11,925 nucleotides of DNA, taken from UHGV virus genome UHGV-1563677. One strand, 5' to 3'. This stretch comes from a virus. Position numbers and translations under genes: made by a program. Below the pieces are notes generated by a model. That model was not told the DNA's origin. It was given only the letters and a program-made list of their open reading frames with translations, and did not search any database. Positions 4,391-6,328 of this stretch are shown here, one piece after another; within the stretch, counting starts at the first letter, position 1; every line of letters starts with the position of its first letter.

Positions 4391-6328
4391 TCAGCCGCCG
4401 GACGCACTGCCGTAGTTCACTCCGGTGATCACCGCCACCGCCGCGGTACGGCGACGACGCCAGTTGATCCAGCGCTCCGCACGGATGGCCACGCTGCCTG
4501 TCTGGAACATGGAAACCAGCTCCACCGGGGACGGCGTGGTACTGTCGCCGCCCGGCTCAGACTGCATTTCCAGTGATGCCTCGCGGGACATATCCACTGC
4601 CACGCCGCCGTCATCCGCCAGATAAATATCCGGGGCATTCACCAGCACCAGCTGGTCACCCACGTACTGGGAGACAATCACCGGCAGCCCCTGGAAGGAG
4701 CCACCCAGCAGGGTCATGTCCGGGTATTCCTTCTGACCCAGCGCATTTTTACGCATGGACAGTGCCAGGGCATTGGTGCTGGACATCAGCCAGACCGCAC
4801 CGGTGGGCTGCAGGTTTGCTGCCACAAACTGTCCAAACGCAGCCTCTGCATCCGCATCCGGGTTACCGGTTGATGCCGTGCCCTTCACATCATGGGTGAT
4901 GGACGCCGGGGAGACATCTGCCACTGCGGCTTTTTTCGGGTCCACAAAGTCTGTATCCAGACGCGCCACCACCGCTTCCGCCAGCGCATTACGGACCAGT
5001 GCATCAGCAGCCGGACTGGAAAAACGGATCAATTCTTCCGTCAGTACCGCAATGGCCGACACCTTCGCATGACTGAAGGTGATGGATTCAAAATCAAACT
5101 TCGTCAGGGGTTTTGCCTTACCCTCACCCACCCAGCCGGCAGCACCGCCGGACACCTGGGCGTGCACACGGATATTGAACGGCACCTGACGAAGTGCAGG
5201 GATCCCGCCCTGACCAAATCGCCCGATAATGGTCTGCGGACGCAGGTAATCAATAAAGTCCTGTGCGTATTCCTGATATTCAGACAGGCTGCCTGCCCAC
5301 TGCGGATCCGTGGTGGTCCCCGCGCCCACTGCCGATTTCAGGACATGATGCAGACGACTGTCATCCGGATACTGACGACGGGCCACTTCCAGGGCTTCAG
5401 ATCGGACGCCTTTAGCCGCAGCCAGCGATTTGGCAAAGCGGGCGAAGCCAATCCCCTTATCCAGTTTCTGCTCCACACGGATCACCGGCGCAGAAGCCAC
5501 CGCGGCCACATTCCCGTTACCGGCCTGTTTCACCGGCTGCGCCGTGGCGGCCTTACCGGCTTCCAGTTCACGCAGGCGCTTCAGGTGCGCATCCACCTGA
5601 CGGATTTCCGCTGCGGTGTTGTCGTAATGCTCTTCCTCCTCCACATCCAGCGTGCGCCCTTCCTCTGCGGCTTTGGTCATGACCTCCTCAAGGGAGGCTG
5701 CCAGCGCTGCACGCTTGTTTTCAAAACTTTTAATCTGTTCGCCAATATTCATTATGGTCTTTTCCTTATGAAAAACGGTTGTTGACTGTGCCGCAGCGCC
5801 GGCAGAAGATGCGATTTTCACCACCGGTTTCCGGTTGCCGGACGCGGCAGAAAACGGGCGGTCGTAAGATTTAATGGTCCGGATGGTGCATTCCGCATTC
5901 GCGGGCACGGTGACGGCAGACACCTCCATCAGTTCCCAGCGCAGAAAATGCAGTCCGCCTCCGTCCAGAAAGGTGTATTCATGGGGACGGAAGCCCACGG
6001 ACAGCCCCCTGACCAGCCCGGTCTTAATGGCCGCCCAGGCCTCATCCAGCCGGGCAGCCAGTTGCGATGGCATATCCGGCACGGGCTTCGCCAGTGTTGC
6101 CGTGATTTCCAGCCCTTCGCTGACCCGGCGCACCGTACACTGCCCCACCGGGCGGGAATGGTCATGCTGCCAGAGAAACGGGATCGCACTGCCAAACTCC
6201 GCGCCCTCCGGCTCCAGGATGTCACCATCCCGATCCGGAGAAGGCGTTGACGCAATCCCGGTGATCACTCGTTCATCCTCACTGAAGGATTTCACCGTCA
6301 GCAGGGAACAGGCCCGTTTAAGAGTCAC
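4391..6328 (-). CDS. Prohead serine protease (HK97-type, N-terminal ~165 aa) fused in frame to an HK97-fold major capsid protein with N-terminal delta/scaffold domain; GTG start
   Basis: 645-aa ORF. N-terminus ITGIASTPSPDRDGDILEPEGAEF...LWQHDHSRPVGQ...LSVGFRP matches prohead protease motifs. From residue 193 (MNIGEQIKSFENKRAALAASLEEV...) there is a coiled-coil delta domain followed by a capsid domain. The GTG at 6328 has an AGGAGG SD 5 nt upstream. An internal ATG at 5752 with an AGGA about 10 nt upstream could initiate the capsid protein alone. Confidence 0.88.
   Translation of the reverse strand: MTLKRACSLLTVKSFSEDERVITGIASTPSPDRDGDILEPEGAEFGSAIPFLWQHDHSRPVGQCTVRRVSEGLEITATLAKPVPDMPSQLAARLDEAWAAIKTGLVRGLSVGFRPHEYTFLDGGGLHFLRWELMEVSAVTVPANAECTIRTIKSYDRPFSAASGNRKPVVKIASSAGAAAQSTTVFHKEKTIMNIGEQIKSFENKRAALAASLEEVMTKAAEEGRTLDVEEEEHYDNTAAEIRQVDAHLKRLRELEAGKAATAQPVKQAGNGNVAAVASAPVIRVEQKLDKGIGFARFAKSLAAAKGVRSEALEVARRQYPDDSRLHHVLKSAVGAGTTTDPQWAGSLSEYQEYAQDFIDYLRPQTIIGRFGQGGIPALRQVPFNIRVHAQVSGGAAGWVGEGKAKPLTKFDFESITFSHAKVSAIAVLTEELIRFSSPAADALVRNALAEAVVARLDTDFVDPKKAAVADVSPASITHDVKGTASTGNPDADAEAAFGQFVAANLQPTGAVWLMSSTNALALSMRKNALGQKEYPDMTLLGGSFQGLPVIVSQYVGDQLVLVNAPDIYLADDGGVAVDMSREASLEMQSEPGGDSTTPSPVELVSMFQTGSVAIRAERWINWRRRRTAAVAVITGVNYGSASGG

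What the first reader, a model, noticed from the sequence alone, without database searches (positions are those of the whole stretch)
4391..6328. Prohead protease and major capsid protein encoded as one 645-aa in-frame fusion with a plausible internal start for the capsid protein
HK97 itself encodes the protease and capsid protein as separate genes. Here the protease domain, a linker, the delta/scaffold domain and the capsid domain form one ORF with a GTG start and a strong SD. An internal ATG at 5752 has its own AGGA SD, so both the fusion and the free capsid protein may be made. This is reminiscent of lambda C/Nu3 nesting, and the ratio of the two products could set protease copy number per prohead.
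Basis: partly seen in the sequence, partly recalled or inferred. Interest (0 to 1): 0.45.

Follow-up and report, generated by a model that had tools for sequence, protein, structure and literature searches.

The report
Protease–capsid fusion gene with nested start
A common E. coli prophage encodes its head-maturation protease and its coat protein as one 645-residue protein, and comparison with relatives indicates that a second, internal start also makes coat protein without the protease, which could set how many protease copies enter each head.

Summary
ORF 6328..4391 (minus strand) encodes 645 aa: an HK97-type S78 prohead protease, a disordered linker, a helical delta/scaffold domain and an HK97-family capsid domain. 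It starts at GTG behind AGGAGG. An in-frame ATG at 5752 follows AAGGA.

The fusion is real and already annotated. The gene is 99.6-99.8% identical to Stx-type lambdoid phages (2851, YYZ-2008), occurs in 1255 of 5426 complete E. coli genomes, and is fused in at least 130 distinct 50%-identity clusters. Three unfused relatives, checked in DNA, start their capsid gene exactly at the M193 position.

The added result is comparative support for the internal start:
- All 36 fused genes examined have ATG, GTG or TTG there, behind an SD-like motif.
- Where the residue is Val the codon is GTG (10/10); where Leu it is TTG (2/2). Chance is about 4e-7.
- The SD glycine is GGA in 16/16 enterobacterial genes, against 11% GGA at other conserved glycines.
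- The site lies in a GC trough with little predicted RNA structure.

Best explanation: nested translation gives a 69-kDa protease-carrying subunit and a 48-kDa plain subunit that co-assemble, as in lambda C/Nu3 or herpesvirus UL26/UL26.5, but with the coat protein included. Expression was not tested. Interest is moderate.

The parts
6350..6367 (-). Terminator-like hairpin (GAACCGC-TCCG-GCGGTTT) followed by a T-run (6349-6340), between the large terminase gene and the capsid-gene SD
   Evidence: only terminator-like site in 4100-6500; the same hairpin plus T-run sits upstream of the SD in all Enterobacterales homologues, with different loops.
6334..6339 (-). Shine-Dalgarno AGGAGG of the long (fusion) product, 5 nt before the start
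   Evidence: Duplex dG with the 16S 3' end is -10.3 kcal/mol.
6326..6328 (-). GTG start of the 645-aa protease-capsid fusion; overlapped by an out-of-frame ATG-TGA (6330-6325)
   Evidence: RefSeq annotates the same start. Other genera have ATG here.
5861..6328 (-). S78 (HK97-type) prohead serine protease domain, about aa 1-156; S110 aligns with HK97 gp4 S114, and H55 lies in the conserved WQHD motif
   Evidence: Pfam PF04586, 33.9 bits against a cut-off of 21. BLASTP to HK97 gp4: 29% identity over aa 21-156. H55, S110 and E135 are invariant in 16 homologues. AF2 pLDDT is about 60-80 for aa 1-138.
5753..5860 (-). Variable, disordered linker (about aa 157-192); the most variable part of the protein and the only part with indels
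   Evidence: Alignment A1 and junction alignment. AF2 pLDDT is about 25 for aa 139-193.
5763..5767 (-). Internal SD-like motif AAGGA, 10 nt before the internal ATG
   Evidence: duplex dG -6.2. An SD-like motif is present in 36/36 fused homologues whatever amino acids are encoded: K-G, K-E, Q-E, T-G. The Gly codon is GGA in 16/16, against 11% GGA at other conserved Gly columns.
5750..5752 (-). Internal in-frame ATG (M193): proposed start of the 453-aa, 48.2-kDa delta-capsid protein
   Evidence: Unfused relatives start their capsid gene exactly here. Replacements are only GTG (10/10) or TTG (2/2). 131 of 145 fused cluster representatives have Met here, 13 have Val, 1 has Leu and none lacks all three.
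5543..5752 (-). Delta (scaffolding) domain, about aa 193-262: two long helices
   Evidence: AF2 helices 195-222 and 229-261 with pLDDT about 76-83. TIGR01554 alignment begins at aa 204.
4394..5542 (-). N-arm and HK97-fold capsid domain (about aa 263-645); the maturation cleavage site was not located
   Evidence: PF05065, 52.7 bits at aa 386-635. TIGR01554, 78.3 bits. PHROG 617 'major head protein'. The AF2 model is unreliable here.
4391..4393 (-). TGA stop shared by both products

Best explanation
The gene is a nested pair. Translation from GTG 6328 gives a 645-aa (68.9 kDa) protein made of an S78 protease, a flexible linker, a delta/scaffold domain and an HK97-family coat domain. Independent initiation at ATG 5752, behind AAGGA, gives a 453-aa (48.2 kDa) delta-coat protein identical to the C-terminal 70% of the long form. 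This short form is equivalent to the stand-alone capsid protein of unfused relatives.

Both forms carry the delta and coat domains, so they should co-assemble into capsomers. The long form then places its protease inside the prohead by covalent attachment, instead of using a C-terminal targeting tail as HK97 gp4 does. After assembly the protease removes itself, the linker and the delta domains, leaving the mature coat protein. The relative strength of the two initiation regions would set the number of protease copies per head.

Shown here: the ORF, its domains, the conservation of the fusion, and nucleotide-level conservation of an initiation region at M193. Inferred: that two products are made, that they co-assemble, how they are processed, and that stoichiometry is controlled this way.
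For: Architecture.

The fusion is real and old. It is in 1255 of 5426 E. coli genomes. It is fused in Enterobacterales at about 75% identity, in alpha-proteobacteria at about 49%, and in at least 130 distinct 50%-identity cluster representatives.

Three unfused relatives, checked in DNA, start the capsid gene at the residue equivalent to M193: Diaphorobacter L027 (ATGA overlap), Brucella L028, and metagenomic L043. Capsid-only representatives align from query residue 193-196.

Signatures of an initiation region in the fused genes:
(1) A start-capable codon is present in 36/36 (24 ATG, 10 GTG, 2 TTG). The Val and Leu cases were picked from the protein alignment before their DNA was seen, and all are GTG or TTG. 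The chance of this from each gene's own codon usage is 3.7e-7.
(2) An SD-like motif lies upstream in 36/36, with dG from -4.3 to -11.9 and a median of -5.6. Other in-frame start-capable codons have a median of -2.7, and 28% of them reach -4.3. The motif persists while the encoded residues change. Its Gly codon is GGA in 16/16 Enterobacterales genes; no other of the 37 conserved Gly columns exceeds 21% GGA.
(3) The site lies in a GC trough with open predicted RNA. In the window, GC is 0.33 against a gene mean of 0.60, and the -20..+20 fold energy is -2.3 against -10.4 kcal/mol. Across homologues the site is, at the median, among the 5% most open positions of its gene.
(4) 131 of 145 fused cluster representatives have Met within 9 residues of the delta-domain anchor, against 19% of control windows. 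The remaining 14 have Val or Leu.

The fused protease domain ends at about aa 156 and lacks a counterpart of HK97 gp4 residues about 163-225.
Against: There is no direct evidence of expression: no ribosome profiling, N-terminal peptides or protein bands. The internal SD is only moderate (AAGGA, 10-nt spacing, dG -6.2) compared with -10.3 for the 5' site. The homologues are related, so counts such as 36/36 overstate the number of independent observations; the GTG/TTG and GGA tests are less affected. The linker is Lys/Gly/Glu-rich, which by itself favours purine-rich, SD-like strings, and a K-G motif could also be a protease cleavage site. A fusion-only prohead does not look sterically impossible by my rough estimate (about 415 x 32 kDa of internal protein, not computed with a tool), so the short form is not logically required. 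RefSeq annotates a single CDS. The role of the HK97 gp4 C-terminus in targeting is recalled from Duda et al. 2013, which I could not open.
Confidence: 0.75

Rival explanations
1. Only the full-length fusion is made. Every coat subunit brings its own protease, which cleaves in cis or in trans after assembly. The Met and SD-like string at the junction are relics of the ancestral two-gene state, or are kept by repeated exchange with unfused relatives.
For: Unfused relatives exist in the same family, and a single indel converts one state into the other (ATGA overlap in L027; L043). By my rough estimate a prohead built only of fusion subunits could hold the protease domains. RefSeq and the phage records annotate one product.
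Against: A relic would decay. Instead, Met is replaced only by GTG or TTG (12/12). The SD Gly codon is the rare GGA in 16/16, while synonymous sites elsewhere in the gene are scrambled. The open, AT-rich context is also kept. All of this holds across clusters below 50% identity.
Confidence: 0.15
2. The conserved purine-rich motif has a protein-level or elongation-level role: it is an autoproteolytic cleavage site (K-G or K-E) that frees the protease, or an SD-like pause that lets the protease domain fold, rather than an initiation site.
For: The linker keeps a K-G/K-E/K-x pattern 3-5 residues before the Met. HK97 protease cleaves after Lys in gp5 (from memory, not tested here).
Against: A cleavage site would not constrain the Gly codon to GGA, nor force Val to GTG and Leu to TTG four codons downstream. 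The nucleotide string survives changes of the encoded residues (K-G, K-E, Q-E-V, T-G). A pause site needs no start codon. This role could co-exist with initiation.
Confidence: 0.07
3. The fusion is an artefact or a decaying pseudogene: a lost stop codon or frameshift in a defective prophage, with a vestigial protease domain.
For: Many E. coli prophages are defective. An Arsenophonus endosymbiont copy (L026) is broken by stops.
Against: The same intact ORF is present in viable Stx phages (2851, YYZ-2008 and others) and in 1252 genomes at full length. The 645-aa architecture is kept at 38-78% identity. The protease Ser and His motifs are invariant.
Confidence: 0.01

Closest known systems
Phage HK97 gp4 (prohead protease) and gp5 (capsid protein with delta domain)
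   Same: Same protease family: S78, 29% identity to gp4, with S110 aligning to S114. Same capsid family (TIGR01554). The scaffold function lies in an N-terminal helical delta domain of the coat protein. The protease gene lies directly upstream of the capsid gene.
   Different: HK97 has two separate genes. Its protease carries about 60 extra C-terminal residues, reported to target it into proheads (from memory), which the fused protease lacks. HK97 places the portal gene before the protease; here the portal gene follows the capsid gene. The capsid parts show no BLASTP-level similarity to each other.
Lambda C/Nu3, HSV-1 UL26/UL26.5 and archaeal virus HFTV1 gp17/gp17.5 (nested protease-scaffold genes)
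   Same: An in-frame internal start within a protease gene yields an N-terminally truncated assembly protein that shares its C-terminus with the protease-bearing long form. The long form is carried into the procapsid by that shared part. For HFTV1 this was shown by ribosome profiling (bioRxiv 10.64898/2026.09.13.751334). The herpesvirus logic is summarised in PMC11565193.
   Different: In those systems the shared part is a separate scaffold and the coat protein is another gene. Here the shared part is scaffold plus coat protein, so the protease would be an extension of a subset of shell subunits. Lambda's protease belongs to a different family (ClpP/S49-like). Internal initiation here is inferred from conservation and has not been shown.
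Salmonella phage Gifsy-2 tripartite capsid gene (Effantin et al. 2010), Pseudomonas phage MD8 gp5, and Paracoccus prophages
   Same: Protease, scaffold and coat protein lie in one ORF of about 690 aa in temperate lambdoid-type phages (PMC12315714; PMC8508860; PMC6536676). The Gifsy-2 gene also has an in-frame ATG (M221) behind GAGGAG at the protease/scaffold border (single sequence, not tested further).
   Different: Those use a ClpP-like protease and a Mu gpT- or lambda E-like coat protein. The window protein has no ClpP match. These are independent fusions in an unrelated protease family.
NCBIfam NF045541 'prohead protease/major capsid protein fusion protein', PHROG 4523 and the actinobacteriophage 'major capsid and protease fusion protein'
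   Same: These are recognised annotation classes for S78-type protease-coat fusions.
   Different: The window protein scores 52.8 bits against the NF045541 cut-off of 525, and 43 bits for PHROG 4523, so it belongs to a different fused lineage (PHROG 617, 870 bits).

Membership tests
HK97-family prohead protease (Pfam PF04586 Peptidase_S78 / TIGR01543) | Profile match above the curated threshold | tested here: met
   PF04586 scores 33.9 bits against a gathering score of 21, at aa 48-152. The stricter equivalog model TIGR01543 scores 46.6 against a cut-off of 59, so it is not reached.
HK97-family prohead protease (Pfam PF04586 Peptidase_S78 / TIGR01543) | Conserved catalytic Ser and His motifs | tested here: met
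   GLS(110)VGF aligns with HK97 gp4 GMS(114)VGF. H55 (WQHD), S110 and E135 are invariant in 16 homologues. In the BLAST alignment the His is offset by one residue. Catalysis itself was not tested.
HK97-family major capsid protein (TIGR01554 / PF05065) | Profile match above the curated threshold | tested here: met
   TIGR01554 scores 78.3 bits against 27.5, at aa 204-584. PF05065 scores 52.7 against 24.2.
HK97-family major capsid protein (TIGR01554 / PF05065) | N-terminal helical delta (scaffolding) domain that is removed on maturation | tested here: inconclusive
   Two long helices at 195-261 are predicted with pLDDT of about 80, which fits a delta domain. Cleavage and the mature N-terminus cannot be tested with these tools.
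HK97-family major capsid protein (TIGR01554 / PF05065) | HK97 fold of the C-terminal domain | tested here: inconclusive
   The AF2 model from 16 close homologues has pLDDT below 50 over aa 333-645, so no fold search was run. The closest solved chain by sequence is 9d9w, a major capsid protein, at E = 0.0018.
NCBIfam NF045541 prohead protease/major capsid protein fusion protein | Score at or above the 525-bit cut-off | tested here: not met
   52.8 bits, covering only aa 48-287. Not a member; it shares the architecture only.
Gifsy-2-type tripartite capsid gene | ClpP/S49-like protease domain at the N-terminus | tested here: not met
   No ClpP or S49 Pfam hit; the protease is S78. This is an analogue, not a member.
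Nested protease/assembly-protein genes (lambda C/Nu3 type) | In-frame internal start codon with its own ribosome-binding site inside the protease ORF | tested here: met
   ATG 5752 follows AAGGA. The site is conserved at nucleotide level in 36/36 homologues, with only ATG, GTG or TTG at the start position.
Nested protease/assembly-protein genes (lambda C/Nu3 type) | Two co-terminal polypeptides actually produced, the short one in excess | not testable with these tools
   This needs initiation-site profiling, western blots or N-terminal proteomics.

The most novel reading that the evidence does not exclude
In this large family of S78 protease-coat fusions, present in about a quarter of complete E. 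coli genomes and in many proteobacterial prophages, the protease is delivered as an N-terminal extension of a minority of the shell subunits themselves. Its copy number per head is set purely by the ratio of two initiation sites in one mRNA. This would be a third solution to protease encapsidation, besides a non-covalent targeting tail (HK97) and a protease-scaffold fusion (lambda, herpesviruses). In E. coli the long form may be tuned down further by a GTG start overlapped by an ATG-TGA start-stop.
Probability: 0.55. Interest if true: 0.55.

Novelty: new variant of a known kind. Interest (0 to 1): 0.5.

Why it matters
Protease-coat fusions raise a plain question: does every one of about 415 coat subunits carry a protease, or is there a way to make fewer? 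A conserved nested start answers it in a testable way. It would extend the nested-gene logic of lambda C/Nu3 and herpesvirus UL26/UL26.5 to a case where the shared module is the coat protein itself.

There is also a practical side. The internal product is missing from RefSeq and phage annotations for a gene found in over a thousand complete E. coli genomes, including Stx-converting phages. It would also affect how virion proteomics and capsid-size predictions based on gene length are read. The fusion itself is not news.

Tried and rejected
(1) Column-wise scan of a 36-sequence codon alignment for conserved start-capable codons. It missed the junction because indels in the linker split the column. 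I replaced it with an anchor-based scan and with positions fixed from the protein alignment.

(2) Programmed frameshifting at the T-run (GTTTTTC, 5776-5770) to release a free protease at the out-of-frame TAA/TGA. Rejected: the run is not a canonical slippery heptamer in the zero frame and is absent from the homologues.

(3) AlphaFold2 on the 16-sequence alignment. Mean pLDDT was 42, usable only for the protease core, the disordered linker and the delta helices. No fold search was run, because the coat domain was unreliable.

(4) Literature. None found a paper describing an internal start in an S78-coat fusion, or proteomics of this phage group. The most relevant papers could not be opened: Duda et al. 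2013, Liu & Mushegian 2004 and Effantin et al. 2010. Prior description therefore cannot be excluded.

(5) The fused fraction among the best 150 cluster representatives is biased upward, because a fused query scores fused hits higher. I use only the absolute count.

(6) Sequence search of the PDB found no solved relative of this family.
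Full report
**What is there.** The minus strand of the window carries a phage late-operon head module:
- small terminase, 8613-8050;
- large terminase, 8053-6392;
- the ORF in question, 6328-4391;
- a 73-aa ORF, 4346-4125;
- an HK97-type portal gene, 4179-1918.

The ORF is 645 codons. It starts at GTG 6328, 5 nt after AGGAGG (6339-6334), and ends at TGA 4393-4391. Pfam finds Peptidase_S78 at aa 48-152 and Phage_capsid at aa 386-635. TIGR01554 (HK97-family major capsid protein) aligns from aa 204 at profile position 3. 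The protease part is 29% identical to HK97 gp4 over aa 21-156, and GLS110VGF aligns with gp4 GMS114VGF. An AlphaFold2 model from 16 close homologues is poor overall (mean pLDDT 42). It does give a moderately confident protease core (aa 1-138), a disordered stretch (aa 139-193, pLDDT about 25) and two long helices at 195-261 (pLDDT about 80) that fit a delta/scaffold domain. The in-frame ATG at 5752 is residue M193, two residues before the first helix, and it follows AAGGA (5767-5763) at a 10-nt spacing.

**Where it comes from, and whether the fusion is real.** The gene is 99.6% identical to Stx-converting and related lambdoid siphophages (phage 2851, YYZ-2008, Stx2a_WGPS6 and others). Those records call it 'major head protein/prohead protease', 'capsid and scaffold' or 'major capsid protein'. 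It occurs in 1255 of 5426 complete E. coli genomes, at up to 7 copies per genome, and RefSeq annotates it as one CDS, 'phage major capsid protein'. Full-length fused homologues of 644-648 aa occur at about 75% identity in Salmonella, Enterobacter, Klebsiella, Serratia, Pantoea and other genera. They occur at about 49% identity in Rhizobium, Methylobacterium, Brucella and Haematobacter. In a library clustered at 50% identity, at least 130 of the best 150 representatives are fused proteins of about 630-680 aa. That share is inflated because a fused query favours fused hits, so only the absolute count matters. PHROG 617 covers the whole fusion. The fusion is old, widespread and under selection; it is neither an error nor a pseudogene. 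It is also not new as an annotation.

**Unfused relatives mark the ancestral capsid start.** Three relatives checked in DNA have two genes:
- Diaphorobacter L027: the protease stop overlaps the capsid start as ATGA, and the capsid protein begins MKTIIEQI.
- Brucella L028: TAA, then GGAGG, then ATG.
- Metagenomic L043: a 224-aa protease, a 34-nt gap with AAAGGAAAG, then ATG (MKTIQERI).

Capsid-only cluster representatives align to the query from residues 193-196. M193 is thus exactly where a stand-alone capsid protein of this family begins.

**Is the internal start kept in the fused genes?** I examined the DNA of 36 fused genes: the window, 24 genome loci and 11 metagenomic loci from separate 50%-identity clusters.

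First, every gene has a start-capable codon at the delta-domain N-terminus: 24 ATG, 10 GTG and 2 TTG. The Val and Leu cases were chosen from the protein alignment before any DNA was read. All ten Val codons are GTG and both Leu codons are TTG. From each gene's own codon usage, the chance of this is 5e-5 for Val alone and 3.7e-7 combined. Among 145 fused cluster representatives, 131 have Met within nine residues of the conserved 'EQI' anchor, against 19% of control windows. Thirteen have Val, one has Leu and none lacks all three. Selection therefore acts on the ability to initiate, not on the amino acid.

Second, an SD-like motif (AAGGA, AAAGGA, GGAG, GGAGG or GAGG) lies upstream in all 36. Duplex energies run from -4.3 to -11.9 kcal/mol with a median of -5.6. 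Other in-frame start-capable codons in the same genes have a median of -2.7, and only 28% reach -4.3. The string persists while the encoded residues change (K-G, K-E, Q-E-V, T-G). In the Enterobacterales set, the glycine inside the motif uses GGA in 16 of 16 genes. GGA makes up 11% of codons at the 37 conserved glycine columns, and no other column exceeds 21%.

Third, the site sits in a local GC trough with little predicted structure. In the window, GC is 0.33 against a gene mean of 0.60, and the -20..+20 folding energy is -2.3 against -10.4 kcal/mol. Across homologues the site is, at the median, among the 5% most open positions of its gene.

These three signatures are what an active translation-initiation region looks like. 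A relic of an old gene boundary would not keep them across lineages below 50% identity.

**Most likely mechanism.** Two co-terminal proteins are made: a 68.9-kDa protease-linker-delta-coat form and a 48.2-kDa delta-coat form. Because both carry the delta and coat domains, they should enter capsomers together. The long form then holds its protease inside the shell by covalent attachment. The fused protease ends at about aa 156 and has no counterpart of the C-terminal 60 or so residues of HK97 gp4. From memory of Duda et al. 2013, which I could not open, those residues target gp4 into proheads. Processing would then remove the protease, linker and delta domains. The ratio of the two initiation sites would fix the protease dose. 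In the window the 5' site has a strong SD (-10.3) but a GTG start overlapped by an out-of-frame ATG-TGA, while the internal site has a weaker SD (-6.2), an ATG and a much more open context. Which site wins cannot be told from sequence. Everything after 'two initiation regions are conserved' is inference.

**Rivals.**
- A fusion-only pathway with relic signals is possible sterically, but it does not explain the codon-level constraints.
- A protein-level role for the K-G/K-E motif (cleavage site), or an SD-like elongation pause, does not explain the GTG/TTG pattern or the GGA constraint. Either could co-exist with initiation.
- Artefact or pseudogene is excluded.
- A frameshift route to a free protease was considered and dropped, because the T-run is not conserved.

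**Comparison with what is known.** Functionally this is the lambda C/Nu3 and herpesvirus UL26/UL26.5 arrangement, recently also shown for archaeal virus HFTV1 gp17/gp17.5 by ribosome profiling. The difference is that the nested product here includes the coat protein. Architecturally it parallels the Gifsy-2 'tripartite capsid gene', MD8 gp5 and the Paracoccus prophages. Those use a ClpP-like protease and a different coat lineage, so they are independent fusions. The window protein is not a member of NCBIfam NF045541 (52.8 bits against a cut-off of 525) or of PHROG 4523. By sequence it belongs to the HK97 protease and capsid families. No solved structure of this fused family was found.

None of my ten full-text searches found a paper describing internal initiation in an S78-coat fusion. 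Key subscription papers were out of reach, so prior description cannot be ruled out.

**Verdict.** The fusion is already known. The conserved nested start is, as far as I could check, an unannotated variant of a known strategy. Interest is moderate (0.5): a specialist would find it plausible rather than startling, but it turns protease stoichiometry in fused systems into a directly testable question in an easily handled E. coli phage.

Noticed in passing
window 6340-6367 (minus strand): An intrinsic-terminator-like hairpin plus T-run sits between the large terminase stop and the capsid-gene SD. The same hairpin plus T-run is present in all Enterobacterales homologues, with different loop sequences (ctcc, gcat, ttcg, cacg, tcag). 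It may be a partial terminator or a processing or stability element in the late operon.
   Followed up: partly
window 6325-6330 (minus strand): The GTG start of the fusion is overlapped by an out-of-frame ATG-TGA 'start-stop' (ATGTGA). Homologues in other genera start with ATG and lack this. It could reduce translation of the long form in the E. coli lineage.
   Followed up: partly
window 4344-4383 (minus strand): Just after the capsid stop lies AAGGAGG (4383-4377), then a 7-bp GC-rich hairpin (4374-4357; local fold -19 kcal/mol), then 10 nt and the ATG (4346) of a 73-aa ORF. The SD is 30 nt from the ATG unless the hairpin brings them together, so this may be a split ribosome-binding site. The hairpin may also stabilise the capsid mRNA 3' end.
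   Followed up: no
window 4125-4346 (minus strand): A 73-aa ORF (PHROG 829, unknown function; no Pfam or NCBIfam hit) lies between the capsid and portal genes and overlaps the annotated portal ATG (4179) by 55 nt. A small ORF of 72-131 aa occupies the same position in distant relatives (L030, L033, L035, L038, L039, L040, L043).
   Followed up: partly
window 1918-4179 (minus strand): The portal protein (753 aa) has a C-terminal extension of about 370 aa beyond the HK97 portal domain. The extension contains tandem repeats of about 54 aa (VPRDGRDYDPDVLQ...). The window copy has 108 aa (two repeats) fewer than E. coli NCTC86 (861 aa) or phage 2851 (859 aa). The C-terminus gives a weak CBM_5_12 hit (aa 703-725). 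Tandem Repeats Finder reported nothing at DNA level.
   Followed up: partly
window 1918-8613; loci L030, L033, L038, L039, L043: The gene order is large terminase, protease/capsid, small ORF, portal. The portal gene therefore follows the capsid gene, unlike HK97 and most siphophages (terminase, portal, protease, capsid). The order is conserved in relatives below 50% identity.
   Followed up: partly
L044 22471-24561 (phage Gifsy-2): The unrelated Gifsy-2 tripartite capsid gene has an in-frame ATG (M221) 8 nt after GAGGAG, at the end of its ClpP-like domain. Nested initiation may therefore be general in protease-coat fusions. This is a single sequence and no conservation test was done.
   Followed up: partly
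proteins P0001, P0123, P0132: Database proteins of about 1080-1094 aa join a large-terminase domain to the protease-capsid fusion. These are probably frameshift or assembly artefacts, or lost stops, but they were not checked.
   Followed up: no
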